Source: Thermoanaerobaculia bacterium (GTDB lineage Bacteria > Acidobacteriota > Thermoanaerobaculia > Multivoradales > UBA5704). From it: a DNA stretch of 64,000 nucleotides. Location of the stretch: the NCBI GenBank assembly GCA_036275055.1, contig DASUEN010000170.1, positions 8,118 through 72,117 on the forward strand, written 5' to 3'. This document shows positions 24,497 to 55,275 of the stretch, piece by piece (within the stretch, counting starts at the first letter, position 1; the number at the start of each line of letters is the position of its first letter). Under the pieces are notes generated by a model. The model saw only the letters and a program-made list of their open reading frames with translations. It did no database searches and had not been told where the DNA came from. The translations under genes and the position numbers were made by a program.

Positions 24497-27400
24497 TCAA
24501 GCTCCAGGACACGCAACTGGCGGAGGAGCTTATCTTTCCATACCTCGTCTTGGTGGCTATAGCTAATGAAGACTTTGGGCTTCGATCGCTCAGTCATAGG
24601 GTGCCGATCTCCTTTAGTCAATGGAACCGAATGCAAGGCAACATGCGTCATAGCGCTGTGGACGAAACTCGAGAGGCGGAGAGACTCGCCAGGTTGTATT
24701 GCAGACCCTTTTGCTACAGTTAGGACCGCCTCTCGGCCCAGCCGGCGGTAGCTCTCGAACTGCGCCTCGCTGCTCCACGACTCGATCTTCTCCTGAGGAA
24801 ACTCAGGGTAGGACCGGGCATAGGTGACTATTTCGTAAGGCTCGCTGCCACAAAGCATCGGCTTGAAAAAGATTAGTGTGCCATCCCTCGCCCCGGGTCC
24901 ATCAACTGCGGAGTAGCGAATTAGGCCGAGTGCGCAGTAACGAGGCGCACTGTTTGCGTTTGTGAACGAAGGCATCTGCTCTTTCAGGTCGATTGGCACC
25001 CCGGTCTCAACCTGCGTCCTTTGCAGGGCTATGACCAATGCCTCGTAGGTGTAGTTCGGGTCGTATCCCGCGTCGCATACAACAATTACTCGGCAACGGC
25101 GTCGGATCATTTCGGTTAGGCCGAGGGGGTCGAGCCGGGCTCCGCTCGATAGTTTTATATAAGGGGTCTGTTCGCCCGCCGTACCGAAGGCATGCCTTAG
25201 TAGCAGGGTCACGCGGTTCCTCGGCCCGTTATAGCGGGAGGATCGACGCCCGCAAGGCCCCGGATTGCCCATCCATCTCCCAATCCCCACACTCAAAATC
25301 GCGAGCGCAAACCTGAAGACTGGTGGTTGGTATGGCTCCGCATCCACTCCCGCGATCGCCGTTGTCCGCTCCAAGGACAGTCCCTGCTCTCCGCCGTAGA
25401 CCTGGGTTCGCCGGTAGCCGAGCCCCGCGCTACCGCAGTGCAGTGGAGACGCCGTGAAATTCTCTAGCCGGCGTTCATTCCAAGAGAGTTCGCCTACATC
25501 CATTACCTCCATTGCCATTTGAGTCAACAGTAGAGGCCGGTTACGCTGCAGGTCGTGGAGATAAAGAGGGTCCGTTGGACCTGTACTCGAGTTCAGGCCG
25601 CGAAGTCGGTGGCTGGCAGCGAGATAAGCACGGGCAACGCGCTCCCGCAACATCATCTGAACCGAAAACCGGCTACCACTGGCCAAACGCCCTAGCGCAA
25701 TGCCAAACCCTAAAAGGGAGAGAATGACAATCAGTAAGAAGAACGTATATAAGGAAAGTTCCCGTAGTTCCCGTGGATAGTAATAGTAGAAGGCATAGCC
25801 ACTCCAACTTGCGGGGAACGCACGAAGATAGCTCTGTGCACAAATCGAAATGAAGGCGAGGAATGTTCCCCAGAAAAAGGGGGGCACGACGACGAGCAGG
25901 AGTCTTCTCCCCAGGAGGCCTATTGCTGCCCTTTCCTTCTGTCCTGCACCTGGCCGGCAGAGCCAGAGCATCACTCCGCCGAAGCCCACTGCAGCCATCA
26001 GCAGAGCGCACTTCTTTAACAAGGTCCAAAATATACTTGGCGCGTAGAATGCTAGAATGCTAGCGCTCGACCAAAGAAGAATGGCAACGGCGATCCACTT
26101 CGACCAACGGAGCCACAACTCGCGGCTGACGGTAGCAACCTCGGTGGGATAGCGACCTCCTTCAGCGAGGCCGGTCACGGCAACGAACACCGCATTGCCG
26201 ATCAACATGGGTCCAAGCACAAGCCCAGGTCCCAGGATTTCGTAAAGCGAATGGGGGGCGCTTACGATCCAGGGAAGCCAGCCTTTGAGGGCCAAGGTGT
26301 ATATCGCCATCTCCACCACGCCGCGGCAAAGCAGAGCGACGAGATCCACCCAAAGAAAAGAGAGTTGGCGCCCAAACGGCCATCTTTGGGCTAGGACCCC
26401 GGCCACCAGAGCCACCATTGGCACAACGATTGACCACATCAGGCAGCACAGCAGCACATCAGGTGTGTACAGCACGTGCCCGGGATGTCGACTGCTGAAA
26501 AAAGAGACAGAAAGAATAATTAGAGACGTGGCCAAAAGCGTCAAATGGAGCGCTAGTTTGAGGCGCAGTGGTCGGGGCAGAATCCTCTCCAGGGATTTGT
26601 GCACCGGGTGGGCACTGACTCGCAGGGAGTTCATGAAGAAAAGTGCAACGCCGTGGAGGCAGATAGCTATCCACCAAAGACTCTTTGGGCTCGGAATCAG
26701 TTCTTGCATCCAAATTGGCTTAGAGATGGTAAGAAGCGGCACCACCAGAGCCGCGGCTAGGATCGGCAGGAGGACGAACAGGTCGAATGCGAAGTCCACC
26801 AAAGACGCCAGGAAATTTCCTTTCTGTGTGAGGACGTTGCGGTGATGGCGCAGGAACCTGACTGCCTCCTCTTCTTGGCTCTCCCCTCCGAGGTCGCTTG
26901 GTATTCTTTGCGCAGTCTGATCAGAGCTTCCAGCTCGGTGGGTCAGAGCGACGAACCAACTTGCGATAAAGCTTCCGCCCGAAACACTCGACAGGTAGTC
27001 GAATCTTGAGAGCAGACCGATCTTAGCTAGACCCTGCATGACTCCGAGACCAAAGATCGCGCCTCGCACCCCGTCCCCTGCTAGGCAAAGCCCAGCAAGG
27101 CCATCCGTGTCAACGTCCTCCGAAGATCGCCTGTGTATAATCCGGCGTAGCGCGGCAAGCCTCTCTTTCTCGTTTGCCCGAGGATCACTGACCATAGAAT
27201 CGGCTGCGAGTTCCACCCTCCAGCGCGGTCGGAGCGCTTCATACTCCTCTCGAAGCACCTCGGCAGCAGTGAGAACCCGATTGACTCCTGCCACTAGGCC
27301 CACCGCGATTCTGCGCGGCTCCGAGCCATAGACAGTAACCTGGATCCTGATCACGGCCTTGGCTTCTTGTCCCTCCTTGCCGCCGCGGCATGCGACAGGG

Positions 27401-27699
27401 ATCGTGACTCGAACTGGCTGCTGGGAGTCGAGCGCTACGATCTTTGCTGCCTCCACCGCAAAGCGAAACAGACCGACCTCCTGTATCGGCTCAACCTCGA
27501 CCCGGAGATCCTTCACCGCTTCCGGTGCACAGCCAACAAGAAGGATGATCTCCCGTCGTTCGTGCCCGCCCTCTATCCCGAGTTCGAACACCACAGGGTC
27601 CGAAACGGCCCTCAGGGAGAAGTTTTGTGTCTCCAAAGGTACCTCCGAAACAAGTATGGCTCTGTGTGAGTGTAACTCACCAGCCAGAGCGTGCAGCAA
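24427..27699 (-). CDS. patatin-like lipase domain split by a polytopic membrane region, then the first part of a TIR domain (frame A of a frameshifted gene)
   Basis: GLCLAGDGVRGAIFGLGVMQGL; FDYLSSVSGGSFIASW; about 10-12 hydrophobic helices; ..RRRCRVIVVCDAGYDPNY..; KVFISYSHQDEVWKDKLLRQLRVLELEG followed by 20 junk codons. Confidence 0.75.
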   Translation of the reverse strand: MLHALAGELHSHRAILVSEVPLETQNFSLRAVSDPVVFELGIEGGHERREIILLVGCAPEAVKDLRVEVEPIQEVGLFRFAVEAAKIVALDSQQPVRVTIPVACRGGKEGQEAKAVIRIQVTVYGSEPRRIAVGLVAGVNRVLTAAEVLREEYEALRPRWRVELAADSMVSDPRANEKERLAALRRIIHRRSSEDVDTDGLAGLCLAGDGVRGAIFGLGVMQGLAKIGLLSRFDYLSSVSGGSFIASWFVALTHRAGSSDQTAQRIPSDLGGESQEEEAVRFLRHHRNVLTQKGNFLASLVDFAFDLFVLLPILAAALVVPLLTISKPIWMQELIPSPKSLWWIAICLHGVALFFMNSLRVSAHPVHKSLERILPRPLRLKLALHLTLLATSLIILSVSFFSSRHPGHVLYTPDVLLCCLMWSIVVPMVALVAGVLAQRWPFGRQLSFLWVDLVALLCRGVVEMAIYTLALKGWLPWIVSAPHSLYEILGPGLVLGPMLIGNAVFVAVTGLAEGGRYPTEVATVSRELWLRWSKWIAVAILLWSSASILAFYAPSIFWTLLKKCALLMAAVGFGGVMLWLCRPGAGQKERAAIGLLGRRLLLVVVPPFFWGTFLAFISICAQSYLRAFPASWSGYAFYYYYPRELRELSLYTFFLLIVILSLLGFGIALGRLASGSRFSVQMMLRERVARAYLAASHRLRGLNSSTGPTDPLYLHDLQRNRPLLLTQMAMEVMDVGELSWNERRLENFTASPLHCGSAGLGYRRTQVYGGEQGLSLERTTAIAGVDAEPYQPPVFRFALAILSVGIGRWMGNPGPCGRRSSRYNGPRNRVTLLLRHAFGTAGEQTPYIKLSSGARLDPLGLTEMIRRRCRVIVVCDAGYDPNYTYEALVIALQRTQVETGVPIDLKEQMPSFTNANSAPRYCALGLIRYSAVDGPGARDGTLIFFKPMLCGSEPYEIVTYARSYPEFPQEKIESWSSEAQFESYRRLGREAVLTVAKGSAIQPGESLRLSSFVHSAMTHVALHSVPLTKGDRHPMTERSKPKVFISYSHQDEVWKDKLLRQLRVLELEGSSKSGMTEGSPQAMLGKPRSR

Positions 27700-36142: not shown

Positions 36143-38569
36143 TCAGTCCCGCGCCAGGATCTCGCCGTAGGCGTTGAGCAGGACCTTTTTGGGGGCCTTC
36201 GGGAGCTTGAGCTTCACGTCGATCGGTACGGTGGCCTCTCCCCTCATCGGTATCGTCCCGATGCGGGCCAATTCGTTCTTGTCGAATTCGACCTCGAGCG
36301 GGACGAGGGTGCGGAAATCCTTTCCGACGCCCTGCTGGGAGACCTGGCCATGGAGCCGGTACTCGCCACCGTCCGCCTTCTCGATTTTCAGGTCGGAGAC
36401 GAAGCGGGGCACCTCGGTGCCGTAGACCCATTGGCTGAAAAACCAATCCATCCTGCCGTCGCCCGTGAGGTTCAGGGCCGGCACCATGTGCCGCTCCACC
36501 ACGCGCTGGAAATCGGCGGTGGTGGCCGATTTGCCGCCATAGGTGGAGGTGAAGTCCTTCATCATGGCGATGAAGTTGGCGTCCGGCGTCTTCGATTTCT
36601 GGTCCCACATCTGGGTGCGCAGCATGTGCAGGACGTAACCCCCCTTGGAATAGATCATGGCTTGTGGCGCCGAGCGGCTGTGTGGCGTGCCGAGCCGCCA
36701 GCCCTGGCTGATGGGGCCCGCCTGGTCATGGGGGACCGCATTGCCCGGGTACTTCCCGAAGATGAACTTGCGGGCGTTGCGCCAGAAGCCGTTGTAGCCG
36801 TCCCAGCCTTGAGTGTGCTGCACGGCCAGGGCTGACGAGAACTCGGCAAAGCCCTCTTCCAGCCACTCGTCGCGGTAGGTGGCGGCGCCCACGAGATGAC
36901 CCCACCACTGGTGGGCGAACTCATGAAAACCCACCTGATTGATGAAATCGGTCGCCGAGGTCAGGCTCAGGGCAGCCCGCTGGGTACTGGTCAGGAAGGC
37001 CATGTAAGGCAGGAAGATCAGCGACGGCCAGGACTGGCCGAAGGACCACTGCGCCTGCTGGGTGATGGCGACATGGGTCTGCGGCAACGGGCCGAAGTAC
37101 GTGGTGAAGATCCGCGCCGAGTTGAGCCCGTCCACGGCGGCGCTGTCGGCCAGCCGGGAGGCGGATACCAACCCCACCTCGGGTCCCAGGTCGGGGTGGT
37201 CGTCCCCGGTGAAGACTTCGACCTGGATGCCGCTGACGTCGTCTTTCCGTTCGAGCCGGTTGAACTTGCCATAGTTGAAGCCGGCGACCTGGACCGGAGT
37301 TTCGGTCCGCCACTCCGAGACCCGCTGTTTCCCTTCGGCGTGCTCCTCTACCTTGCTCCCCACGGAGACGATGTCGAACCCGGCAGGAATCCGGTAGACG
37401 AGATCGAATTTCGCCGGGTCGGAGAAAATGTTGAGGTTGGGGTACCAGCTTTCGCGAGCGGCGACCACGAAGGTTTTGCCCTCGACGTTTTGCAGCACGT
37501 CGCCACCCTGGTACGCGAGACGGAGCTTCACGGTCGCCCCTTTGGCCAGAGGCTCGGGGAAGACGACCGCGGCATCGGCGTCCTTCTTTTCGTCCTCCTG
37601 AACCCAGGCGAGCGGCTTCCAAGCGGGCTCGGTCCCCGCCACCTCGACGGCATAGGAAGCGTCGCCGATCCGGAGCTTCGACATCAGGTTCACCGGCAGG
37701 ACGCGCAGACCCTCCACCAGGGTCTGGAAGCGGACGGTGGCCTTCCCCGCGATGTCGGCGTCGCGTTTGACCTCGGTTTCGATCCGGTAGTCGAGGGCGT
37801 CGGCGAGCCGTTTTTCCGGCGAGGCCTGCCGCCGCGCCACTTCCTCTTTGCGATCACAGAGATACCAGATCCCTCCCTTGTACGTATCGGCGACGTAGAA
37901 AACGGTATCCTCTCCGCCCAGACGCGGGGAGATGTGCAGCGCCTCGGCGCCGTCGGGGTCCACGGCCGCGAGCGCAGGGGGATTCTTTCGGCCGTCGATC
38001 AGGGCCAGGAAGACGCCGTCGGTCCGCCCCGGAGTGTTCAACAGGTCCTCGAGAATCCGCAGATGGAAGTTGGTCCGGAAGTCCTTCTGCTGCCGCTTGA
38101 GCCATCGCTCGTAGGCATCGACGGCGTGGGGGTCGGGAGCGCCGGTCTGAATGGCGGCATGGTGCTCCAGCTCGGCCAGAGTGCCATCGGTAAAAAGAAG
38201 GAACAGGTTCTCGAACGTATCGGTCAGCGCCTCGAAGCCCTTGTCGGCCGCGGAGGAAAGGGCGAGCTGCCGCGACTCGTAGGGCGTGGCGGGGCTCAGC
38301 CGGTAGCTCCCCTTGCCCACGAAGACCGCGCCGATCGTGCGCCCTTCGACCGGAGCGAGCAGGTAGAGGGCTCCGGAGTCGAGCTGGAAACGGAACGCGT
38401 CGCGCTCCAGGACCAGGTTCTGGACGGGGATCTTCCGTCCATCCGGCTTCGCGCCGCGGAGCGCGGCATACGTCGGATCGGTGGCCGCCTGGAGAGGGGC
38501 GGCCAGCGCGGCAACCAAGAAGGAGATGGCGAGGACGCCGCTCAGGCGGAGACGCGAGGGAAGGGACAT
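36143..38569 (-). CDS. M1-family zinc aminopeptidase-like, secreted
   Basis: Start MSLPSRLRLSGVLAISFLVAALAAPLQA. GFHEFAHQWWGH..(18 aa)..WLEEGFAEF. Confidence 0.8.
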   Translation of the reverse strand: MSLPSRLRLSGVLAISFLVAALAAPLQAATDPTYAALRGAKPDGRKIPVQNLVLERDAFRFQLDSGALYLLAPVEGRTIGAVFVGKGSYRLSPATPYESRQLALSSAADKGFEALTDTFENLFLLFTDGTLAELEHHAAIQTGAPDPHAVDAYERWLKRQQKDFRTNFHLRILEDLLNTPGRTDGVFLALIDGRKNPPALAAVDPDGAEALHISPRLGGEDTVFYVADTYKGGIWYLCDRKEEVARRQASPEKRLADALDYRIETEVKRDADIAGKATVRFQTLVEGLRVLPVNLMSKLRIGDASYAVEVAGTEPAWKPLAWVQEDEKKDADAAVVFPEPLAKGATVKLRLAYQGGDVLQNVEGKTFVVAARESWYPNLNIFSDPAKFDLVYRIPAGFDIVSVGSKVEEHAEGKQRVSEWRTETPVQVAGFNYGKFNRLERKDDVSGIQVEVFTGDDHPDLGPEVGLVSASRLADSAAVDGLNSARIFTTYFGPLPQTHVAITQQAQWSFGQSWPSLIFLPYMAFLTSTQRAALSLTSATDFINQVGFHEFAHQWWGHLVGAATYRDEWLEEGFAEFSSALAVQHTQGWDGYNGFWRNARKFIFGKYPGNAVPHDQAGPISQGWRLGTPHSRSAPQAMIYSKGGYVLHMLRTQMWDQKSKTPDANFIAMMKDFTSTYGGKSATTADFQRVVERHMVPALNLTGDGRMDWFFSQWVYGTEVPRFVSDLKIEKADGGEYRLHGQVSQQGVGKDFRTLVPLEVEFDKNELARIGTIPMRGEATVPIDVKLKLPKAPKKVLLNAYGEILARD

Positions 38570-38704
38570 CGGGAGCACCTCCTGGGAAACCGGAAATCCG
38601 CTTGACAGGAAGTGCTTCCAGAGTCCAATCCATTTCGCGAAGGTCCCTCGGCCGCCCCCAATCGCGGTATCCTCGGAGAAATCTCTCTTCCGGGGAGGAA
38701 GCCG

Positions 38705-39160
38705 ATGAGCCCGAACAAGCTCGCAGCCTGGTATGACAGAGTCCTGGTCTTGCTGGAGAGGACGAATTGGGTGCCTATCCTCCTGGCTCGGCTCACCCTG
38801 GGGATCGTCTTTGCCGAGTCGGGCTGGGGAAAGCTCCACAACCTGCCCAAAGTGGTGGCGTTCTTCACCGAGCTCGGCATCCCCGCTCCCGGCATTCAAG
38901 CTCCCTTCGTGGCCGGCGTGGAATTCGTCGGCGGGCTGCTGCTTCTCGCGGGCCTGCTGACGCGGCTCGCGGCCATCCCACTCTCGATCACCATGCTGGT
39001 GGCCATCGCGACGGCCAAGATGAGCGACGTCCACAGCCTCGGCGACTTCGCCGGCCTCACCGAATTCGCCTACTTCGTCCTCCTGCTCTGGATCGCCTGG
39101 TCAGGCGGCGGCAAGGTCTCCCTGGATCATCTCCTCTGGGGACGCCGCAGGAAGGTCTGA
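38705..39160 (+). CDS. DoxX-family membrane protein
   Basis: GGGGAGGAAG RBS. ..LARLTLGIVFAESGWGKL..FVGGLLLLAGLLTRLAA.. Confidence 0.8.
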   Translation: MSPNKLAAWYDRVLVLLERTNWVPILLARLTLGIVFAESGWGKLHNLPKVVAFFTELGIPAPGIQAPFVAGVEFVGGLLLLAGLLTRLAAIPLSITMLVAIATAKMSDVHSLGDFAGLTEFAYFVLLLWIAWSGGGKVSLDHLLWGRRRKV

Positions 39161-39191
39161 GATGGGGGCGCCGACGGCGGCATGGAGCGAT

Positions 39192-39270
39192 CGACGCCGG
39201 CTTGGAGCTACAGACATCGGCTTGGCGCCGCAGACACCGGCTTGGATCCAAAGACGCCGGCTCCGGGGGT
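39192..39270. repeat. 4 x 20-bp degenerate tandem repeat between convergent genes
   Basis: cgacgccggcttggagcta / cagacatcggcttggcgccg / cagacaccggcttggatcca / aagacgccggctccgggggt. Confidence 0.75.
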
Positions 39271-39276
39271 GCCGCT

Positions 39277-39558
39277 CTACTTCTCCGTCGGGTGACCGAG
39301 GACCGCTGCCGCCGCTTCCGAGGAGGTGATCACTGGAATCACCTCGAAGTCGACCAAGTCCGCCCAGTTGGCCATCCATTCCTCCAGGAGCGCCCGATCT
39401 TCGCACTCCATCACCTGGAAGCACTGGTGAAGGTCCGCCGTCACCCAGATTCCCACGTACCGGAGCCCCTCCGGCGCCAGCCGGCCCTGCTCGCGGAAGC
39501 GCTGATATACCGGCCGCGCATCGCCGCCGCGAAAGCGCTCGACGATCATGTACAGCAT
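39277..39558 (-). CDS. DUF3303-like small protein
   Basis: MLYMIVERFRGGDARPVYQRFREQGRLAPEGLRYVGIWV..CFQVMECED.. Confidence 0.7.
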   Translation of the reverse strand: MLYMIVERFRGGDARPVYQRFREQGRLAPEGLRYVGIWVTADLHQCFQVMECEDRALLEEWMANWADLVDFEVIPVITSSEAAAAVLGHPTEK

Positions 39559-39591
39559 GATGCCCATCGCGGCGCAGGAACGGCGCCACAC

Positions 39592-40566
39592 TTACCACCC
39601 TGTTTGTTGATAGGTTTCACCGCGAGTCGCCCTTTTGTTGTAGAAAAAAGATAGAGCAAAGTTGGCGCAAGGCACCACACAAAGGAGAAAGAAGGTAAGA
39701 ATTGTCAGTTCGTTCGAAGCGGCAGCAGATCCGGTCACTGCACCAACGTGCACCAGTCCAGACAACAGTAGGCTTCGTGAAGTGCCGCGAAAGCTGAGCA
39801 CAGTCAGCCCCAAAGCAACAAGCGTGAGAAAAAAGCCCAGGACCGGGAGCACGAGAAGAAATCCTGGAGGATTTTCCACTTCGACCATGAGGGGAAATAC
39901 CTGGAGAAAGCCGGATACAGCGATCAGCCATAGTAGGGCTAACACGCGCCGGCCGGGTCGAACGAGTGACAGCCAGTTTCCCAGTCGATAGGCGAAGGAG
40001 TTGGGATTTGAGGCGGTCGTACTTGGTACGTCTGCTCCGACCTCCGATACGTTAGGCTTCGGCGTCGCAGATGGCTCCGGTGAGCCTTTGGGTACAATCC
40101 GCTTGAGCTCTTCGAATAAAAGATGCATGTCGGATTTGAGCCGGTCAGAGCGAATCTCGACTGCGTTCAGGCGTACGAATCGAGACAAGTCAGCCGGCAA
40201 TTCCTCGGACCGGGGCATCGCCGTGCCCTCGAGCAGGATCGGAATAATTCGGGATCCGCGCTCCAAGGCCGCCATCAACTCGAGACGGACGAAGTCGCCG
40301 GGATCGTGAAGGCCCCCCGGTTCCCAGTTCCACCCGATCAGTACCAAGACGACGACCGATTCGGCGATGGCTTTGGTAATAGCTTCGACGAAGTCAATTC
40401 CCGCGCCGATGGAGTCAACGTCAATGAAAACACTATCGGTACCGAACTCCTGCTCCAATCGATTGTGGAGAAGGTGGGCAAAAAAAGTGGAGTCAGCACG
40501 ACGATAGCTGATGAAAATTTTGTTGGTCACGGCATGCACCGAATGGCGTGCCTTCCGGAATGTCAT
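39592..40566 (-). CDS. TIR-domain protein with C-terminal 4-TM membrane anchor
   Basis: KIFISYRRADSTFFAHLLHNRLEQEFG..VFIDVDSI..VVVLVLIG..DFVRLELMAALERGSRIIPILLEG. C-terminal helices LALLWLIAVSGFLQVFPLMV, FLLVLPVLGFFLTLVALGLTVL, LLLSGLVHVGAVTG, ILTFFLLCVVPCANFALSFF. Confidence 0.8.
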   Translation of the reverse strand: MTFRKARHSVHAVTNKIFISYRRADSTFFAHLLHNRLEQEFGTDSVFIDVDSIGAGIDFVEAITKAIAESVVVLVLIGWNWEPGGLHDPGDFVRLELMAALERGSRIIPILLEGTAMPRSEELPADLSRFVRLNAVEIRSDRLKSDMHLLFEELKRIVPKGSPEPSATPKPNVSEVGADVPSTTASNPNSFAYRLGNWLSLVRPGRRVLALLWLIAVSGFLQVFPLMVEVENPPGFLLVLPVLGFFLTLVALGLTVLSFRGTSRSLLLSGLVHVGAVTGSAAASNELTILTFFLLCVVPCANFALSFFYNKRATRGETYQQTGW

Positions 40567-40877
40567 CGAACATCGAGCGCCACCTTGATGGCCTGATTCA
40601 GTTCTTTCACTTTCGGGGTGTCACAGGCGCCCATCAGCCGCTTGAGATGATTGCGCGGAACCGTGAGGATGTTGTCGAGATTCGCAACGCATCGGATGGG
40701 TAACCCCTGCTGACGGCCGAGCTCCACTTCACTCGGGAGCTCACGGATGGTTCGAGTCACAAGGGTCACTACGATGGAGCCGATCGAGTGGAGGACGGCA
40801 TCACGGGTCAGAATCACTACTGGCCGGTCGCCGACCGGTGGGGGCAGCTCAGCCCACCAGACCTCTGCACGTCTCAC
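40563..40877 (-). CDS. mazF: MazF/PemK-family toxin (endoribonuclease)
   Basis: MRRAEVWWAELPPPVGDRPVVILTRD..VVTLVTRT... 4-nt overlaps with both neighbouring genes. Confidence 0.8.
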   Translation of the reverse strand: MRRAEVWWAELPPPVGDRPVVILTRDAVLHSIGSIVVTLVTRTIRELPSEVELGRQQGLPIRCVANLDNILTVPRNHLKRLMGACDTPKVKELNQAIKVALDVR

Positions 40878-41095
40878 TCACGGCCGTCCTTCCACGGTGC
40901 GATTCCGCGAAGCTCACTAGCCAGTGCAAGCTGAGTCTCGGCAACCTGTGCGGCGTCCAGGTCGGTAATGGCCTCGGCTTCGAGATATTGGCGGACTGCC
41001 TCTTCCACGAGGGCTCCAACATCCCGGTTTTGCCTTTCGGCGAGACTTCGCAGGGGCTTTTCCACGTTGCCCGGAAGCTCGATAGTCATGTACAT
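40874..41095 (-). CDS. ribbon-helix-helix-type antitoxin (MazF partner)
   Basis: MYMTIELPGNVEKPLRSLAERQNRDVGALVEEAVRQYLEAE.. Confidence 0.65.
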   Translation of the reverse strand: MYMTIELPGNVEKPLRSLAERQNRDVGALVEEAVRQYLEAEAITDLDAAQVAETQLALASELRGIAPWKDGRE

Positions 41096-41142
41096 AGATT
41101 ACAAGAACTTCGGGCTGGCTGCAAGGTAGTTGGTGAGGCCTC

Positions 41143-42594
41143 CTACGGCAACGGCAGCACGCTGTGCTTGGCGAGCTCGATGAAGGGCCCGGGGAAGATT
41201 CCGAGGGCCAGGGTCGCCAGGGCGCAGAAAGCGATGGTGCCGACCAGGGCCGGGGCTTGGAGGGGGACCGGGGTGGTCTGGTCCGAGTCCTTCAGGTACA
41301 TGTAGAGGACGATGCGGAAATAGTAGTAGAGGGAGATGGCGCTGGTGAGGACGCCGATCACCGCCACCCAGCCCCAGCCCCCCTGCACGGCCGCGGCGAA
41401 GAGGTAGAACTTGCCCACGAAGCCGCCGGTGGGGGGAATGCCGGTGAGCGCCACCATGAAGAGGAGCATCATCGCCGCCAGGAACGGTGAGCGGCGCGCG
41501 AGGCCGGCGTAGTCGGCGCACGTCTCGCCCGCGTACTCCCGCCGCTCCAGCAGGACCACCGTGCCGAAGACGCCGAGGGTGATGAACGTGTAGGCCAGGA
41601 GGTAGAAGAGCACGGACCACAGCCCCACCTCGGACACCGTCAACACACCGATCAGGATGTAGCCGGCGTGGGCGATCGAGCTGTAGGCGAGCATCCGCTT
41701 GACGTTCTCCTGGGTCAGCGCGGCCACGTTTCCCCACACCATGGTGATCACGGAGACGATGGCCACGATCATCTGCCAATCGGCCCGCACGCTCCACAGA
41801 CCCTCATAGAAGATGCGCAGCAGGATGGCGAACGAGGCCGCCTTGGAGGCCACCGCCAGCCAGGCCGTCACCGGCGTGGGCGCGCCCACGTAGACGTCCG
41901 GCGTCCAGACGTGGAACGGCACCGCCGCCACTTTGAAGAACAGCCCCGCCGCCAGCAGCAGCCAGCCGAGCGGCACCAGGGTATTTCCCTGCGCGGTGTG
42001 CAGCCCCTCGGAGAGCTCGCTGAGCTGCACCGTGCCGGCCGCACCGTAGAGCAGCGAGATGCCGTAGAGCAGGATGCCGGACGACAGGGCGCCGAGGATG
42101 AAATATTTGAGCGCCGCCTCGTTGCTCCGCCGCTCACGCTTGAAGTAGCCGGCCAGCACGTAGCTCGCGAGCGCCATGGTCTCGAGCGAAATCCAGATGG
42201 TTAGCAGCGTATAGCCGCTCGCCATGAACATCATCCCCGAGGCCGCGAGCAGGAGCAGGGCAAAGTACTCGGAGGCGCGGTACTGGGCCTCTTCGAGGAA
42301 ACGGACGGAGAGGAGCACCGTCAGCGCCGTGGCACCCAGCACCAGCAGCTTCATGTAGAAAGAGAAGCCGTCCAGCACGAAGGTGCCACCCAGGATCAGC
42401 AGCCGCGGAGTGCTCAGCACCGAGTGGACGCGCCACAACACGCCGCCCGTCAGCGCGAGGCTCACGACGGTCACCAGCGCCGAATCCCGGGTTCCCATGC
42501 CGCGGCCGATGGCGCCCGCGAGCAGCATCAGCAAGCCCGCCGCGGCGAGCAGGATCTCCGGAGAGAGCAGCAGGTACTCTTGCGCGTTCGGCAC
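41143..42594 (-). CDS. nuoN: NADH-quinone oxidoreductase subunit N
   Basis: 483-aa polytopic antiporter-like subunit, last gene of the nuo operon. Confidence 0.9.
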   Translation of the reverse strand: MPNAQEYLLLSPEILLAAAGLLMLLAGAIGRGMGTRDSALVTVVSLALTGGVLWRVHSVLSTPRLLILGGTFVLDGFSFYMKLLVLGATALTVLLSVRFLEEAQYRASEYFALLLLAASGMMFMASGYTLLTIWISLETMALASYVLAGYFKRERRSNEAALKYFILGALSSGILLYGISLLYGAAGTVQLSELSEGLHTAQGNTLVPLGWLLLAAGLFFKVAAVPFHVWTPDVYVGAPTPVTAWLAVASKAASFAILLRIFYEGLWSVRADWQMIVAIVSVITMVWGNVAALTQENVKRMLAYSSIAHAGYILIGVLTVSEVGLWSVLFYLLAYTFITLGVFGTVVLLERREYAGETCADYAGLARRSPFLAAMMLLFMVALTGIPPTGGFVGKFYLFAAAVQGGWGWVAVIGVLTSAISLYYYFRIVLYMYLKDSDQTTPVPLQAPALVGTIAFCALATLALGIFPGPFIELAKHSVLPLP

Positions 42595-50846: not shown

Positions 50847-51355
50847 GCGCGGACCTCAGAGGAGGCCGCCGACGCGGCCTTGGGCTTGGCCACCGTCATG
50901 CGGTCGATCTTGCGTTGCAGGTGGAGGAGCCCCCAGAGGAGGGCCTCCGGCCGCGGCGGGCAGCCGGGCACGTAGACGTCCACCGGGATCACGCGGTCCA
51001 CCCCCTGGGTGACGGCGTAGGTGCGATAGGGGCCGCCGCAGGTGGCGCAGGCGCCCATGGCGAGGGCCCACTTCGGCTCCGGCATCTGGTCCCAGAGGCG
51101 GCGCACGATGGGGGCCATCTTCTCCGTCACCGTGCCGGCGACGATCATGAGGTCGCTCTGGCGCGGCGTGGCGCGAAAGACCTCGGCGCCGAAGCGGGAC
51201 ATGTCGTGCCGCGGGTCGAGGACGGCCATCATCTCGATGGCACAGCAGGCGAGGCCGAACTGCATCGGCCAGATGGCCGAGCGGCGCGCCCAGTTGAAGA
51301 TCTTGTCGTACGTGGTGGTGAGGACGTTCGCCTCGACCGAATCCATCAGGCCCAA
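50843..51355 (-). CDS. nuoB: NADH-quinone oxidoreductase subunit B
   Basis: ..[11 protein letters not shown].., ..[10 protein letters not shown].., ..[11 protein letters not shown].. (N2 cluster cysteines). Confidence 0.92.
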
Positions 51356-51702
51356 CGCAGCGCCCCCCGATTCCAGATGTAGGCGTACCCCGTGATCAGG
51401 ATGACCAGGAACACGGCCATCTCGATGAACCCGAAGAGGGCCAGGCGGTTGAACATCACCGCCCAGGGGAAGAGGAAGATGGTCTCGACGTCGAAGATGA
51501 CGAAGAGGACGGCGATCAGGTAGTAGCGGATGCTGAAACGGTGGTCATGGGCGAAGGTCTCGGGCTCGTTGCCGCACTCATAGGGGTCGAGGTTGGTATC
51601 GACCGAGCTCCCATGGCGCAGCATCCGGGCAGCCACCAGCGAGACCACCACGAAGACGATGGCCACCAGCGTGAACACGAGGATCGGCAGATAGCTCGTC
51701 AT
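51346..51702 (-). CDS. nuoA: NADH-quinone oxidoreductase subunit A
   Basis: 118 aa, 3 TM helices. ..YECGNEP......[18 protein letters not shown].. Confidence 0.9.
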
Positions 51703-52326: not shown

Positions 52327-52809
52327 TCATTCTTCTTCAGCAAGGATTTCAAAAGCTTCCGCAAACGAGACGCTTCGGGTTTCGCGTAATTCGTTCACAA
52401 CCTCGAACGCTCGAAATAGTGCGGCCTTTCCGGCAGGCACCCACTTCCCTGTTGCCCAATCCTCCTGTACCTCAAGGGCGCCAGCACGGCACTCCACGAA
52501 ACGGAGTTTCCCTTCTCGGTAGTCTTTACCGGGCCTTTCGCGGGCCAGTCGAAGCACCTCTTCAGCCTTCAAATCTAATGCCGCGAGAAAAAATGCGTCA
52601 GGATGGAAAGAATGCAGATCAAAACCGAGCCCCAAGAGCTTAATCGCATTGGGCCGTATATACTTAAGAAGGTCTCGAGAGATTTCTTCCCCTATCCCTC
52701 GCTCTACAGATGCGAAAGGGTGAGGAATACCCCGAGGTGTGTAGCCTTCCTGCTTCGCCTCCTCCGGCAATTCATCCGTCTCAATTCGGTTGACTCTCAC
52801 GAATGGCAT
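52327..52809 (-). CDS. hypothetical protein (160 aa), translationally coupled partner of the TIR gene
   Basis: ATG at 52809 lies 13 nt inside the end of the TIR ORF. Low GC. No family recognised. Confidence 0.6.
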   Translation of the reverse strand: MPFVRVNRIETDELPEEAKQEGYTPRGIPHPFASVERGIGEEISRDLLKYIRPNAIKLLGLGFDLHSFHPDAFFLAALDLKAEEVLRLARERPGKDYREGKLRFVECRAGALEVQEDWATGKWVPAGKAALFRAFEVVNELRETRSVSFAEAFEILAEEE

Positions 52810-53813
52810 AATACTCTCAACATTTCGTCCAAATAGCGGTTTATGTTTTCGGCCACCGACGATGTCAGGAGCTTAGGAACGGCAGAGATCCTGCTGCTTC
52901 GCGCTTGATACCCGCAGAAGCCATCGCTCGTCAATATTGTAGTGGCCGTATCCAGGATATTTGACAGCTTAGAACCTCGGACTGAACCCTCGTCAACAAT
53001 CTTCGAAAGACTCAGGTACTCCTCACAGGCTTCGAGAAGCCCCGGCTCACCGACCAACTCCCTAAATGCTGCGTTCAAGCCCTCGAAGTCAAACCAACTC
53101 ACTGGGCCAAGTCTTAACTCGATCGAATAACGTTCCAGAGTGCTATCGACTCCGGACATTGGATTCTCTCTCCAATCTAAAAGCCTGACGTTTGGTCCGT
53201 TGAAAAACACAGCGCCACGCGCCTTGGTCTCGGCTTCCTTTTTGGCGAGAATTTTTTTCATGTGGCCATAGAGCGCAACGGGTGGGTTGAACGGATCGTT
53301 ATCGTAAACTATTTGCACTCGCGAGATATTGTAGAATCTATCGCCGGCTCCGACGAGCCGGATCTCTGGAATATCACGAAACAAGCTATTGCTGGCAAAA
53401 TTCTCGACCGAACCCATTTTGTCATATTCTCTGGCTCTTGAAACAAAGAGCATTCTTGCCGCTTCGTTCTTCAGCTCTGCAAGATTTTGCAGATATTTAA
53501 GATGGCCAACCGGAGCTGGAGGCTTCAGATTGAGTTCGGCAAGCAGGCACCAGATCTCGCGCCTCAATGCCCATGCTATTCCAAGCTCAAATAGTACCCA
53601 CTCTGACTTCAAGCTCTCACGAGAGACAATGACTACAAGATGGGTCGCGCTTCTGACTAACTCTCGAAGTGCCTCTGAGACTGCCTGGCCAGGCACCATA
53701 TTCAGCTCATCCATAAGCACACGAAGACCGACAGCCTCCAGGCATTCTCGTACTTCCTTTGCAAATATGGCGTCCTTGCGTGAATAGCTCAAGAGAAACA
53801 ATGGGGCAGCCAT
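52797..53813 (-). CDS. TIR-domain protein with unassigned 200-aa C-terminal domain
   Basis: LFLLSYSRKDAIFAKEVRECLEAVGLRVLMDELNMVPGQ..THLVVIVSRESLKSEWVLFELGIAWAL... Low GC. Confidence 0.75.
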   Translation of the reverse strand: MAAPLFLLSYSRKDAIFAKEVRECLEAVGLRVLMDELNMVPGQAVSEALRELVRSATHLVVIVSRESLKSEWVLFELGIAWALRREIWCLLAELNLKPPAPVGHLKYLQNLAELKNEAARMLFVSRAREYDKMGSVENFASNSLFRDIPEIRLVGAGDRFYNISRVQIVYDNDPFNPPVALYGHMKKILAKKEAETKARGAVFFNGPNVRLLDWRENPMSGVDSTLERYSIELRLGPVSWFDFEGLNAAFRELVGEPGLLEACEEYLSLSKIVDEGSVRGSKLSNILDTATTILTSDGFCGYQARSSRISAVPKLLTSSVAENINRYLDEMLRVLCHS

Positions 53814-53829
53814 CTTGGATCGTACCTCT

Positions 53830-54081
53830 CTATAGTCCAGGCACGTCGTGATTTCTCGACAAACCGCCGACGGTCAAGCCCCAGTTCGCCTGCCAAGATT
53901 GCGAGCCCGATTCGGCGATGTCGCCCGACACGGCTACGAGATCTATGCGGGAGCCCTTGGCGAAGGTCCCCCTGGCGGCTCCGAGATCCTTGAAGAAGGC
54001 CTTTCCCAGTTTGGTGAGGTCCTCGCCCTTGAAGCGACTGTGGGCGCCGAAGTGGAGGTCGGAGAGATGGAGGATGAGCAT
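53830..54081 (-). pseudogene. truncated, frameshifted duplicate of the 5' end of the metallophosphoesterase::TIR gene
   Basis: MLILHLSDLHFGAHSRFKGEDLTKLGKAFFKDLGAARGTFAKGSRIDLVAVSGD.. matches the first residues of 56458..58332. ..LAGELGLDRRRFV.. continues in another frame. Homology ends just after the GNHD codons at about 53838. Confidence 0.85.
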
Positions 54082-54229
54082 GCGGTACCCCGGGTCTTGG
54101 TTCGTGTCTCAGTCCGTTCGCAGACCATTCTATCCTGGACTTTGGGAGGGGCGACTGCTGAGGTCGGCGCCTGCGTGGCCAGCGGAGTGTCGTCTCGTGG
54201 TACTCTCTAAGTGGAAGGAGATCGTGCCG

Positions 54230-54466
54230 ATGAATGACCAAGTCGTGATCCGGGTCGTGCAGTTCCAGGAGGGTGGATGGCTCGTCGCACAGTGTCTGGA
54301 GGTAGACATTGCTGCCCAGGGCAAGACGGAGAGCGACCTCCACTACCAGTTGGGCCGCCTGCTGGTGGGGCGGATCCTGGCGAGCGAGATGCTTGGAGTC
54401 GAGCCCTTCGCTACCCTGCCTCCTGCGCCGAAGCGGTATTGGGACATGTACACCGGGGCAGGATAA
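54230..54466 (+). CDS. small protein, tentatively HicB-like antitoxin fold
   Basis: GGAAGGAG RBS. MNDQVVIRVVQFQEGGWLVAQCLEVDIAAQGKTESDLHYQL.. Confidence 0.4.
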   Translation: MNDQVVIRVVQFQEGGWLVAQCLEVDIAAQGKTESDLHYQLGRLLVGRILASEMLGVEPFATLPPAPKRYWDMYTGAG

Positions 54467-54513
54467 GGGGGCTGGTACTATACTGGCTTGGGTAGGCACC
54501 ATCTGGAGGCGGT

Positions 54514-54762
54514 ATGGCTAGAACCAGAGAAGCACAGGTTTTGCTGGAATCCGAGGAGTACGAATGGTTGGAAGCCATTGCGGCTCAACGCCGGACCTCC
54601 GTCTCGGACTTGATTCGCGAAGCCGTTCGGGACCGGTATCTCTCACTCGCCGAACAGCGTAAGAGAGCCTTCGAGGCAATCTGTCAGATCCACATTCCGA
54701 TCCCAGATTGGGACACACTGGAAAAGGAGATCGCAGAAGCCCATGACAGCGATCTTCCTTGA
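54514..54762 (+). CDS. ribbon-helix-helix antitoxin (VapB-like)
   Basis: ..EYEWLEAIAAQRRTSVSDLIREAVRDRYL... Its end overlaps the start of a PIN-like ORF. Confidence 0.65.
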   Translation: MARTREAQVLLESEEYEWLEAIAAQRRTSVSDLIREAVRDRYLSLAEQRKRAFEAICQIHIPIPDWDTLEKEIAEAHDSDLP

Positions 54763-54841
54763 CGCGAACGTCTTTTTCTATGCGGTCGGGGCTGATCATC
54801 CTCTGCGCGACGCAAGCCAGCAAGTTCTGCGCCGTGCATGA
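54743..54841 (+). pseudogene. truncated PIN-domain (VapC-like) toxin, 32 codons only
   Basis: MTAIFLDANVFFYAVGADHPLRDASQQVLRRA* is the N-terminal PIN strand with its acidic residue, then a stop. Confidence 0.65.
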
Positions 54842-54883
54842 CCATCCGAGGACGTTGAGTTGACCACTCGCCGGAGGAGCCGA

Positions 54884-55045
54884 ATGTCCACATCGCCACG
54901 CCTGAGCCTCGAAGAGCGGCTCCGCCTGTTCGACGAGGCCACGGAGCGACAGCAGGCACGGGAGGCGGGCAGACCCCCGGTGGACAGGGTGACGGAGCGG
55001 GATTGGCGGCGGGAGGATCTCTATATCCGTAGCAGCTCTCGTTGA
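54884..55045 (+). CDS. small hypothetical protein (possible orphan antitoxin fragment)
   Basis: GGAGGAG RBS. MSTSPRLSLEERLRLFDEATERQQAREAGRPPVDRVTERDWRREDLYIRSSSR. Confidence 0.3.
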   Translation: MSTSPRLSLEERLRLFDEATERQQAREAGRPPVDRVTERDWRREDLYIRSSSR

Positions 55046-55275
55046 CTGCCCCGAAGGGGCAAAGGCATGTAGCCTGGGCGGACGCGAAGCGCTGAGCCCC
55101 GGGAAAAGCCGATCCATCCATCCGTTAAAGCCCTGAAAGGGCGACGGCAGCTCATCGTTCGACAGGACTGCCGCCGCCCCTTCGGGGCTTTAGGGGTTTG
55201 TTGGGCCACATCTACCCGGGGCTGGCAAAAGGCGCCAGCCCCGGGCTACATGCCGTCGCCCCTTCGGGGCTGGCG
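55046..55275. repeat. cluster of REP-like palindromic units (GCCCCTTCGGGGC hairpins with GGGCTACATGCC arms)
   Basis: 55046-55078 is an inverted copy of 55238-55270. A third partial unit lies at 55168-55188. The family resembles the 15241..15382 palindrome. Confidence 0.75.

What the first reader, a model, noticed from the sequence alone, without database searches (positions are those of the whole stretch)
39592..41095. Three-gene overlapping operon: RHH antitoxin, MazF toxin, TIR protein with a 4-helix membrane anchor
- The three minus-strand genes are translationally coupled by 4-nt overlaps (40874-40877 and 40563-40566, the latter an ATGA).
- The third gene encodes an N-terminal TIR domain (KIFISYRRADS.., ..DFVRLELMAAL.., ..IIPILLEG), a Pro/Ser linker and four predicted TM helices.
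- The cassette is visibly lower in GC than its flanks. It is wedged between the end of nuoN and a DUF3303 gene, consistent with an inserted accessory module.
- I do not recognise a canonical MazEF module hard-wired to a membrane TIR effector as a described system. It could be a TA-guarded or TA-triggered abortive-infection module.
Basis: partly seen in the sequence, partly recalled or inferred. Interest (0 to 1): 0.8.

Follow-up and report, generated by a model that had tools for sequence, protein, structure and literature searches.

The report
MazEF module beside orphan membrane TIR gene
The three genes exist as described, but they are two separate mobile modules, an ordinary MazEF toxin-antitoxin pair and a rare membrane-anchored TIR gene, stacked in a variable hot spot after the nuo operon rather than one hard-wired three-gene system.

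Summary
Three minus-strand ORFs lie at 39592-41095: an RHH-like antitoxin (73 aa), a PemK/MazF toxin (104 aa) and a TIR protein with four C-terminal TM helices (324 aa). Their GC3 is 0.60-0.68, against 0.86-0.93 for the flanking genes.

- The RHH-MazF pair is a common self-contained cassette. It occurs in 39 other contexts, 33 of them with at least 1 kb downstream. None has a TIR gene downstream on the same strand.
- At the same site after nuoN, close Thermoanaerobaculia relatives show every combination. These are empty, a different TA, MazEF alone (L051), and TIR-4TM without mazF (L001). L022 has a disrupted mazF with an unrelated TIR gene on the opposite strand.
- The ATG that creates the ATGA overlap lies in DNA belonging to the MazEF module's 3' flank. 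The TIR gene's conserved start is probably a GTG 27-36 nt downstream.

The TIR domain is SARM1-like, with the catalytic Glu (E96) conserved. The 4TM domain is an orphan: one homologue among billions of proteins.

Most likely this is a canonical TA module next to a stand-alone membrane-tethered TIR NADase-type gene in a small TA/defence islet. They may be co-transcribed here, but they are not an obligate unit. Interest is modest.

The parts
40874..41095 (-). RHH-type (MazE/EndoAI-like) antitoxin gene, 73 aa
   Evidence: - The ORF is.
- Pfam RHH_1 scores 6e-4 at 20.1 bits against a 20.5 cutoff. NCBIfam RelB-like antitoxin scores 1.5e-5, below its cutoff.
- A profile of 23 orthologues hits CopG-family RHH proteins and the B. 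subtilis antitoxin EndoAI in the PDB at E about 0.02.
- 7 of 23 orthologues hit RHH_1.
- The gene sits directly upstream of MazF in 26 other contexts.
40563..40877 (-). PemK/MazF endoribonuclease toxin gene, 104 aa, GTG start overlapping the antitoxin stop (GTGA)
   Evidence: - Pfam PemK_toxin scores 1.1e-13.
- PDB sequence hits are M. tuberculosis MazF3, MazF9 and MazF6, and B. subtilis EndoA, with the RPVVILTR motif aligned to RPVLILTR.
- More than 650 homologues exist, the best 120 at 75-92% identity and nearly all 104 aa long.
40545..40566 (-). Module junction: the 3' flank of the MazEF cassette, which supplies ATG 40566 and the first 5-7 codons of the TIR ORF
   Evidence: - Homology with the MazEF-only locus L051 runs through ATGAYATTCCGGAAGG, to window 40551 and possibly 40545.
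- Homology with the TIR-4TM-only locus L001 starts at about 40543-40540.
- In L051 this flank continues as the C-terminal remnant of an Unstab_antitox gene.
39592..40566 (-). TIR-4TM gene (324 aa from ATG 40566; probable native start GTG 40539 or 40530)
   Evidence: - The ORF is.
- There is one full-length homologue, P0002/L001, at 66% amino-acid identity.
- Window versus L001 gives dN/dS 0.36 and dS 0.47. The neighbouring nuoN gives dS 0.43.
40096..40527 (-). SARM1-like TIR domain (residues about 14-157); catalytic-Glu codon E96 at 40279-40281
   Evidence: - Pfam TIR_2.
- The best PDB sequence hits are SARM1 TIR domains at 1.4e-9, with E96 aligned to the Glu of SARM1's WVHKE motif.
- E96 is invariant in a 42-sequence alignment.
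- The AF2 model has pLDDT above 90 here.
- Foldseek's best matches are SARM1 TIR, target-normalised TM-score 0.87-0.88, rmsd 1.7-1.9.
39997..40095 (-). Pro/Ser-rich disordered linker (residues 158-190)
   Evidence: - The AF2 model has pLDDT of about 50-60 and no secondary structure here.
- L001 carries a 28-residue insertion that is a tandem duplication in this linker.
39625..39996 (-). Short amphipathic helix plus four TM helices (residues 191-314): an orphan membrane domain
   Evidence: - Hydropathy and AF2 helices at 191-201, 204-228, 235-258, 265-280 and 285-314.
- A phmmer search of residues 182-324 against 1.84 billion representative proteins returned only its own cluster.

Best explanation
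Two independent mobile modules are stacked head to tail in a chromosomal hot spot just downstream of the nuo operon of a Thermoanaerobaculia (Acidobacteriota) genome.

**Module 1: a canonical type II toxin-antitoxin pair.**
- The RHH antitoxin presumably binds and neutralises the MazF endoribonuclease and autoregulates the operon. This is inferred from the family.
- Its likely roles are selfish maintenance or stabilisation of the islet, and possibly generic abortive infection.

**Module 2: a single-gene cassette.**
- It encodes a cytoplasmic SARM1-like TIR domain tethered to the inner membrane by an orphan four-helix anchor.
- TIR NADases form their active site between two TIR domains and are switched on when accessory domains cluster them. 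SpbK, SARM1, TIR-STING and TIR-SAVED are established examples (PMC12847820).
- The most likely mechanism is therefore that an unknown membrane or infection cue clusters the anchors. The TIR domains then self-associate and E96-dependent NAD+ cleavage arrests the cell. This is inferred.

**Relationship between the modules.** In this genome the TIR gene is probably co-transcribed with mazEF, because it was inserted 0-36 nt behind mazF. That linkage is historical rather than mechanistic: each module exists and is maintained without the other.
For: **Shown: MazEF is self-contained**
- The RHH-MazF pair, usually with the 4-nt overlap, recurs in 39 distinct contexts. These span Acidobacteriota, Planctomycetota, Actinomycetota, Dormiibacterota and other phyla.
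- 33 of them have at least 1 kb downstream, and 26 carry this RHH antitoxin.
- A TIR profile HMM built from 128 domain sequences found no significant TIR hit (E < 0.01) within 4 kb of any. The one real TIR, in L022, scored only E = 0.015 with that HMM and was confirmed by Pfam.

**Shown: the orthologous site is variable.** Relatives with nuoN 88-90% identical in amino acids carry:
- L050: empty site.
- L048/L049: an Unstab_antitox TA module.
- L051: RHH (79%) and MazF (93%) only.
- L022: RHH, a mazF broken by a 278-bp insertion, an HTH gene, and an unrelated S1-S1-TIR_2 gene on the opposite strand.
- L001: another TIR gene, a truncated RHH remnant, no mazF, TIR-4TM, and BrnTA.

**Shown: the junction is a seam between modules**
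- The junction maps to window 40551-40540.
- ATG 40566 lies on the MazEF side of it.

**Shown: TIR-4TM is maintained without mazF**
- Window versus L001 gives dN/dS 0.36 (0.26 for the TIR domain).
- dS is 0.47 against 0.43 for nuoN, which fits vertical co-descent.

**Shown: TIR genes are common cargo here**
- Two further TIR_2 ORFs lie in low-GC3 DNA in the same 64 kb.
- TM-bearing relatives of this TIR domain (P0020, P0011) stand alone without PemK neighbours.

**Shown: the TIR domain looks catalytically competent.**
Against: - The window and L001 share the RHH-remnant-then-TIR-4TM order. The triplet therefore existed in their common ancestor and persisted for some time (dS about 0.45), so a lineage-specific functional interaction cannot be excluded.
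- All three genes have similar GC3, so joint acquisition is possible.
- No promoter-like site was found for the TIR gene alone or for the cassette. TIR expression here probably depends on the mazEF promoter or on nuo read-through.
- Three different TIR genes sit next to this same nuoN-site MazEF copy in three genomes. That could hint at more than hot-spot clustering.
- NADase activity, membrane insertion and any defence phenotype are untested.
- Pairwise dN/dS of 0.36 is relaxed compared with nuoN (0.11). It cannot show which lineage is under selection.
Confidence: 0.75

Rival explanations
1. RHH-MazF-TIR-4TM is one tripartite abortive-infection system. Either the TA pair guards or triggers the TIR effector, or the TIR protein senses infection and acts through MazF. 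In one version, phage-induced loss of the labile antitoxin frees MazF and also derepresses the TIR gene.
For: - The genes are tightly packed and co-oriented, with 4-nt overlaps and no terminator-like site between mazF and the TIR gene.
- All three share low GC3.
- The RHH remnant still precedes TIR-4TM in L001.
- No separate promoter was detected for the TIR gene.
Against: - Synteny is not conserved from the MazF side. No TIR gene lies downstream on the same strand in 39 contexts.
- L051 carries MazEF alone at the same site.
- L001 keeps an intact TIR-4TM without mazF and with a truncated antitoxin.
- The ATGA overlap is built from MazEF-flank DNA and is absent from L001.
- Four literature searches found no MazEF-TIR system.
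Confidence: 0.08
2. An addiction-anchored cargo slot. MazEF has no mechanistic link to the TIR protein, but as a resident addiction module it stabilises the hot spot. Defence or conflict cargo landing next to it (TIR-4TM, TIR383, S1-TIR, BrnTA) is then retained longer, and in the window the cargo also borrows the TA promoter.
For: - MazEF, intact or as a remnant, is the common element in four orthologous loci: the window, L051, L022 and L001. The cargo next to it differs in each.
- Nested TA remnants of Unstab_antitox are present at the site.
- It is established general knowledge that chromosomal TA modules can stabilise adjacent dispensable DNA.
Against: - mazF itself has decayed in two of the four loci (L001 and L022), so stabilisation is not strict.
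- Cargo also accumulates on the nuoN-proximal side, for example TIR383 in L001.
- The sample is only six or seven loci from one clade.
Confidence: 0.3
3. TIR-4TM is not an enzyme-based defence effector. It could be a non-catalytic membrane scaffold or signalling adaptor, or a slowly decaying orphan gene with no current function.
For: - Only two members are known anywhere.
- dN/dS is relaxed, at 0.43 in the linker and TM half.
- The linker tolerates a 28-residue duplication in L001.
- Matches to defence-system models are weak. PADLOC ThsB scores 2.7e-8, and NCBIfam ThcB4 scores 43.8 bits against a 220-bit cutoff.
Against: - The ORF is intact over 311 aligned codons at dS 0.47.
- The TIR domain has dN/dS 0.26.
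- The catalytic Glu and 12 other positions are invariant across 42 family members.
- The closest structural and sequence match is the NADase SARM1, not a scaffold TIR.
Confidence: 0.15

Closest known systems
RHH-antitoxin MazEF modules: B. subtilis EndoA/EndoAI (PDB 4me7) and M. tuberculosis MazF3, MazF6 and MazF9
   Same: - A PemK/MazF-fold toxin of about 100-120 aa follows a small antitoxin gene with a 4-nt overlap.
- The antitoxin profile hits EndoAI and CopG RHH proteins.
- The RPxxxLTR motif is shared with MazF3.
   Different: - Nothing is architecturally different.
- This is one of more than 650 close relatives of a 104-aa subfamily common in Acidobacteriota and Planctomycetota metagenomes.
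- Cleavage specificity is unknown.
Single-protein TIR NADase defence genes, for example B. subtilis SpbK (PMC12847820), and the SARM1 TIR domain
   Same: - A TIR domain with the catalytic Glu is fused through a flexible linker to a non-catalytic accessory domain that could cluster it.
- SARM1 TIR is the best match by both sequence and fold.
- The gene stands alone, with no partner effector.
   Different: - The accessory domain is C-terminal, and it is a four-helix membrane anchor with no detectable homologues.
- SpbK uses a soluble N-terminal domain that docks on a phage portal.
- No trigger is known and no activity has been shown.
E. coli relA-mazE-mazF-mazG operon (from my own knowledge, not checked here)
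   Same: A third gene is co-transcribed directly downstream of mazEF.
   Different: - mazG encodes a nucleotide pyrophosphohydrolase.
- Here the third gene is a TIR-TM protein, and it is not conserved with the pair.
Thoeris (ThsB TIR sensor plus ThsA effector, including the TM-macro ThsA of type II)
   Same: - There are weak profile similarities to ThsB-type TIR models.
- Membrane involvement and TIR chemistry appear in one defence context.
   Different: - No ThsA-like gene is adjacent.
- TIR and TM are fused in one polypeptide.
- The NCBIfam ThcB4 score is far below its cutoff.
Variable TA/defence hot spots (defence islets) at conserved chromosomal positions
   Same: - A fixed anchor, the nuoN 3' end, is followed by ECF-sigma in the relatives.
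- Low-GC3 cargo of TA modules and TIR genes differs between close relatives.
   Different: - The islet is small, 0.4-4 kb.
- No integrase or recognisable recombination site was found.
- In the window the distal flank is DUF3303 rather than ECF-sigma.

Membership tests
Type II TA, MazEF (PemK/MazF toxin with RHH antitoxin) | Toxin matches the PemK/MazF profile above the curated threshold | tested here: met
   PF02452 scores 51.8 bits against a 23.1 cutoff. PDB hits are MazF3, MazF9, MazF6 and EndoA.
Type II TA, MazEF (PemK/MazF toxin with RHH antitoxin) | Small antitoxin gene immediately upstream, overlapping or abutting the toxin gene, and conserved as a pair | tested here: met
   GTGA overlap. 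The same RHH plus MazF pair occurs in 26 other contexts and in L051.
Type II TA, MazEF (PemK/MazF toxin with RHH antitoxin) | Antitoxin has a ribbon-helix-helix DNA-binding domain | tested here: inconclusive
   RHH_1 scores 20.1 bits against a 20.5 cutoff. 7 of 23 orthologues hit RHH_1. The family profile hits CopG and EndoAI at E about 0.02. This is consistent but sub-threshold.
Type II TA, MazEF (PemK/MazF toxin with RHH antitoxin) | Toxin arrests growth and the antitoxin neutralises it | not testable with these tools
   Needs expression assays.
   No same-strand TIR gene downstream in 39 MazF contexts. L051 has the pair alone at the orthologous site. L001 has TIR-4TM without mazF.
   ATG 40566 lies in MazEF-flank DNA. 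The homologue starts at the equivalent of GTG codon 13.
Catalytic (SARM1-like) TIR NADase | TIR fold | tested here: met
   PF13676 scores 48.7 bits against a 28 cutoff. AF2 pLDDT exceeds 90. Foldseek target-normalised TM-score is 0.87-0.88 to SARM1 TIR.
Catalytic (SARM1-like) TIR NADase | Conserved catalytic glutamate | tested here: met
   E96 aligns with the Glu of SARM1's WVHKE motif and is invariant in 42 sequences. That this Glu is SARM1 E642 rests on my own knowledge; the PDB 7cm7 title names an E642A mutant.
Catalytic (SARM1-like) TIR NADase | NAD+ cleavage activity dependent on self-association | not testable with these tools
   Needs biochemistry.
Thoeris | ThsB-type TIR above the family threshold, together with an adjacent ThsA effector (SIR2-SLOG or TM-macro) | tested here: not met
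   ThcB4 scores 43.8 bits against a 220 cutoff. The neighbours are nuoN, MazF, DUF3303 and DoxX.
CBASS/Pycsar effector | Adjacent nucleotide cyclase and a nucleotide-sensing domain (SAVED, STING or cNMP-binding) in the effector | tested here: not met
   TIR_2 is the only Pfam domain in the protein, and no cyclase is among the neighbours.

The most novel reading that the evidence does not exclude
In this lineage the stacking has created a real regulatory coupling. TIR-4TM has no promoter of its own and is expressed from the RHH/MazF-autoregulated promoter. Phage-induced shut-off would then degrade the labile antitoxin, which would both free MazF and derepress the membrane TIR NADase. The result would be an emergent two-effector abortive-infection unit. 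The repeated arrival of three unrelated TIR genes beside this one MazEF copy would reflect selection for that synergy.
Probability: 0.1. Interest if true: 0.6.

Novelty: new variant of a known kind. Interest (0 to 1): 0.27.

Why it matters
**What it is not.** As a three-gene system it does not hold up, so it should not be reported as a new defence-system type.

**What remains**
- There is a rare TIR architecture: a SARM1-like catalytic-type TIR domain fused to an orphan four-helix membrane anchor. If active, it would add a membrane-tethered example to the rule that TIR NADases are activated by clustering.
- There is a clear small example of a chromosomal hot spot, the 3' end of the nuo operon in Thermoanaerobaculia. 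Nested TA modules and at least three unrelated TIR genes turn over there between close relatives.

**Practical lesson.** A 4-nt ATGA overlap can arise by chance when a cassette lands behind a gene ending in CGATGA. Tight packing alone is weak evidence for a functional unit.

Tried and rejected
**Searches that added nothing**
- A metagenome-contig scan with the TIR-4TM protein found only a 42-residue fragment match and no new locus.
- An exhaustive phmmer search of the linker-TM half against 1.84 billion representatives found only its own cluster. The anchor could not be assigned to any family.
- The promoter and terminator scan found no sigma-70-like promoter. The only terminator-like hit near the cassette lies inside the TM4 coding region, so it is uninformative.
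- An Rfam scan of 38000-42000 gave only a far sub-threshold sRNA hit inside nuoN, which I dismissed.
- Four literature searches or reads for MazF/PemK with TIR, or for TIR-TM proteins, found no described MazEF-TIR system. The "TIR-TM" hits were plant or animal receptor papers.

**Ideas considered and rejected**
- An 18-nt imperfect direct repeat (15/18) lies at 39537-39554 and 41077-41094, spaced 1540 bp apart. I considered it as a target-site duplication. I rejected it because both copies lie in the conserved N-terminal coding sequence of DUF3303 and RHH. By my own rough estimate about one such pair is expected by chance in 2.2 kb.
- Thoeris, CBASS and Pycsar membership were rejected; see the membership tests.
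- DUF3303 was considered as a fourth operon member. I rejected it because its GC3 (0.86) matches the host and it is absent from L001.

**Limits**
- I looked for the relatives' distal flank (ECF sigma, anti-sigma, M23 peptidase) in the window and it is absent. The island's distal border in this genome could therefore not be defined from an empty site.
- The correct numbering is codons 10 and 13.
Full report
**1. What is in the sequence**

Three co-oriented minus-strand ORFs occupy 39592-41095.
- 40874-41095 encodes a 73-aa protein.
- 40563-40877 encodes a 104-aa protein from a GTG start. Its first four bases, GTGA, contain the upstream stop codon.
- 39592-40566 encodes a 324-aa protein. Its ATG is part of CGATGA, the end of the middle gene.

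Pfam gives the following.
- PemK_toxin for the middle gene, at 1.1e-13.
- TIR_2 for residues 17-124 of the third, at 1.4e-12.
- RHH_1 for the first, at 20.1 bits, just under the 20.5 cutoff.

Other antitoxin evidence points the same way but stays weak.
- NCBIfam gives a sub-threshold RelB-like antitoxin match.
- A profile of 23 orthologous antitoxins hits CopG-family RHH proteins and the B. subtilis MazE-type antitoxin EndoAI at E about 0.02.
- 7 of the 23 reach RHH_1 individually.
- I therefore treat the RHH assignment as likely but not formally above threshold.

The MazF matches M. tuberculosis MazF3, MazF9 and MazF6 and B. subtilis EndoA in the PDB.

The membrane anchor is supported from three directions.
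- Hydropathy finds four hydrophobic segments.
- AlphaFold2 gives a confident TIR domain (pLDDT above 90). It is followed by a disordered Pro/Ser linker (158-190), a short helix, and four long helices at 204-228, 235-258, 265-280 and 285-314 with moderate confidence.
- Arg and Lys lie before TM1, between TM2 and TM3, and in the C-terminal tail. The TM1-TM2 loop is acidic. This fits an N-in/C-in topology with a cytoplasmic TIR domain (read from the sequence).

The cassette is compositionally foreign. Its GC3 is 0.62, 0.68 and 0.60, against 0.93 for nuoN and 0.86 for DUF3303.

**2. The MazEF pair is a common, self-contained cassette**

- The MazF has more than 650 homologues. The best 120 are 75-92% identical and nearly all are exactly 104 aa.
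- I fetched contexts through four exact-protein look-ups and a scan of one genome per species.
- This gave 39 distinct contexts, 33 with at least 1 kb downstream of mazF.
- 26 of them carry the same RHH antitoxin directly upstream, typically with the same 4-nt overlap.
- The hosts include Acidobacteriota/Thermoanaerobaculia, Planctomycetota, Kuenenia, Binatia, Actinomycetota and Dormiibacterota.
- The genes downstream of mazF are unrelated from place to place: YiaAB, a GDSL lipase, DUF3617 and hypotheticals.
- tblastn with the window's TIR domain found no TIR within 4 kb of any of these mazF genes.
- A TIR profile HMM built from 128 domain sequences of the hits gave no significant hit (E < 0.01) there either. 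The one exception is L022, described in section 3.

**3. The orthologous site in close relatives shows every combination**

nuoN homologues at 88-90% amino-acid identity come from Thermoanaerobaculia. Their loci give these states.
- **L050:** nuoN, a 371-bp spacer, then ECF-sigma. This is an empty site.
- **L048/L049:** about 740 bp of extra DNA encoding an Unstab_antitox (PF09720, 6.8e-11) and a possible toxin ORF.
- **L051:** RHH (79%) and MazF (93%), followed only by a C-terminal remnant of that same Unstab_antitox gene and then ECF-sigma. There is no TIR gene.
- **L022:** a 71-aa ORF, RHH (82%), a mazF split by a 278-bp insertion, and an HTH-like ORF. On the opposite strand lies a 682-aa protein with two S1 domains and a C-terminal TIR_2 domain (6.2e-16). 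It is unrelated to TIR-4TM.
- **L001:** this contig carries the only full-length TIR-4TM homologue (66% amino-acid identity). Its order is nuoN, a different 383-aa TIR protein, a 49-aa remnant of the RHH gene lacking its N-terminal strand, about 35 nt, TIR-4TM, an opposite-strand BrnTA, then ECF-sigma.
- In L001 mazF is missing almost exactly. About 313 bp of the window have no counterpart there.

So MazEF exists without TIR-4TM, and TIR-4TM exists without MazF, at the same chromosomal position.

**4. The junction**

- Homology between the window and the MazEF-only locus L051 continues past the mazF stop through ATGAYATTCCGGAAGG. It reaches window 40551 and perhaps 40545.
- Homology with the TIR-4TM-only locus L001 begins at about 40543-40540, at TTCGGTGCATGCCGTGACC.
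- ATG 40566 and the first 5-7 codons of the annotated TIR ORF therefore belong to the MazEF module's 3' flank. That flank is itself a scrap of the older Unstab_antitox gene.
- The ATGA "coupling" follows from a cassette landing in frame behind a gene that ends in CGATGA.
- In L001 the gene was called from the GTG equivalent to window codon 13. Window codons 10 (40539) and 13 (40530) are in-frame GTGs.
- No terminator-like structure separates mazF from the TIR gene, and no sigma-70-like promoter was detected anywhere in the cassette.
- Co-transcription in this genome remains likely, but as a by-product of the insertion.

**5. Is TIR-4TM a live gene, and what is it?**

Window versus L001 gives the following.
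- Over 311 codons, dS is 0.47 and dN/dS is 0.36. dN/dS is 0.26 for the TIR domain and 0.43 for the linker plus TM region.
- The adjacent nuoN segment gives dS 0.43 and dN/dS 0.11.
- The matching dS values argue that the cassette has descended vertically with the chromosome since the two genomes split.
- The intact frame and dN/dS below 1 argue for purifying selection, although relaxed. That includes a lineage without mazF.

The TIR domain's best PDB matches are SARM1 TIR.
- By sequence the match is 1.4e-9.
- By fold the target-normalised TM-score is 0.87-0.88 with rmsd 1.7-1.9 Å.
- E96 aligns with the Glu of SARM1's WVHKE motif. From my own knowledge this is catalytic E642, and PDB 7cm7 is titled as an E642A mutant.
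- E96 is invariant in a 42-sequence alignment, together with Y21, R22, R23, D49, G56, G78, W81, D91, P109 and others.

The same TIR subtype (30-42% identity across the alignment; 35-50% in local BLASTP alignments) is fused in other proteins to many different C-terminal modules. These include FGE-sulfatase, PASTA, TPR, WD40, thioredoxin and single TM helices. This is the pattern of an effector domain joined to variable sensor or anchor domains.

The 4TM half has no detectable homologue in 1.84 billion representative proteins. A metagenome scan found no further locus. Two TM-bearing relatives of the TIR domain stand alone with no PemK neighbour.

**6. Mechanism**

- *Shown:* the modules are separable, the TIR domain is SARM1-like with an intact catalytic Glu, and four C-terminal helices are predicted with a cytoplasmic TIR domain.
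- *Inferred for MazEF:* it acts as a standard RHH-MazF addiction module.
- *Inferred for TIR-4TM:* it is a stand-alone, membrane-tethered TIR NADase. Its activity is gated by clustering of the anchor, by analogy with the general rule that accessory domains concentrate TIR domains to form the inter-subunit active site (SpbK paper, PMC12847820).
- *Unknown:* the trigger.

I put about 0.75 on the stacked-independent-modules reading. Within it I put roughly even odds on the NADase-defence mechanism.

**7. Comparison with known systems, and novelty**

- The TA pair is an ordinary member of the MazEF family with an RHH antitoxin.
- The TIR protein is not Thoeris. It has no ThsA partner, and its ThcB4 score is 43.8 bits against a 220-bit cutoff.
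- It is not a CBASS or Pycsar effector, because it has no cyclase neighbour and no sensing domain.
- Functionally it most resembles single-gene TIR NADase defences such as SpbK. It differs in having an orphan membrane anchor.
- Literature searches found no MazEF-TIR system.
- I classify what is really there as a new variant of a known kind, because of the TIR-4TM architecture. It sits next to an already known kind of TA module.

**8. Verdict**

- A lineage-specific regulatory coupling through the shared transcript cannot be excluded (about 0.1).
- Interest is 0.27.

Noticed in passing
window 52327-55117 (TIR ORF 52797-53813, minus strand): A second low-GC3 island (GC3 0.50-0.58) lies immediately upstream of nuoA (51346-51702, GC3 0.92). 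It holds a 338-aa TIR_2 protein (1.2e-17, with ThsB-like PADLOC hits) and three ORFs with no family match. Both ends of the nuo operon are therefore flanked by TIR-bearing islands.
   Followed up: partly
window 23948-24496 and 24427-27699 (minus strand): A third TIR_2 ORF (Pfam 5e-7; PADLOC ThsB 4e-19; GC3 0.64) lies directly downstream of a 1090-aa ORF. That larger ORF has a sub-threshold Patatin-like match (2e-5) and GC3 0.63. Together they could be a two-gene or frameshifted TIR-phospholipase unit.
   Followed up: partly
L022 5103-7151 (minus strand), 4173-4451 and 4587-5018: At the orthologous nuoN site of another Thermoanaerobaculia MAG, mazF is split by a 278-bp insertion. The neighbouring cargo is an HTH-like 143-aa ORF and a 682-aa protein with two S1 RNA-binding domains and a C-terminal TIR_2 domain, an unusual S1-TIR architecture.
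   Followed up: partly
L001 712-1863, and 2560-2700 within the TIR-4TM homologue: L001 carries an additional 383-aa TIR protein (TIR_2 1.2e-22) with an uncharacterised C-terminal region of about 260 aa, inserted between nuoN and the RHH remnant. Its TIR-4TM copy has a 28-residue tandem duplication in the linker.
   Followed up: partly
L048/L049 6465-7504; L051 7061-7225: The same hot spot holds an Unstab_antitox (PF09720) gene and a possible partner toxin ORF that gene callers missed. L051 keeps only its C-terminal remnant right after mazF, which suggests that MazEF inserted into an older TA module.
   Followed up: partly
window 39178-39262: A 20-nt tandem repeat of 4.2 copies at 76% match (consensus CGGCTTGGAGCCACAGACAC) starts just past the end of the DoxX ORF (39160) and ends just before the DUF3303 stop (39277). 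Its function is unknown.
   Followed up: no
window 39537-39554 and 41077-41094: An imperfect 18-nt direct repeat (15/18) sits at the 5' ends of the DUF3303 and RHH coding sequences and brackets 1540 bp. It is probably a chance match.
   Followed up: partly
window 36143-39591: In this genome the cassette is followed by DUF3303, DoxX and an M1-type peptidase-like ORF. The five closest relatives instead have ECF-sigma, anti-sigma and an M23 peptidase there. The window has no copy of those genes, which implies a rearrangement at the hot spot.
   Followed up: partly
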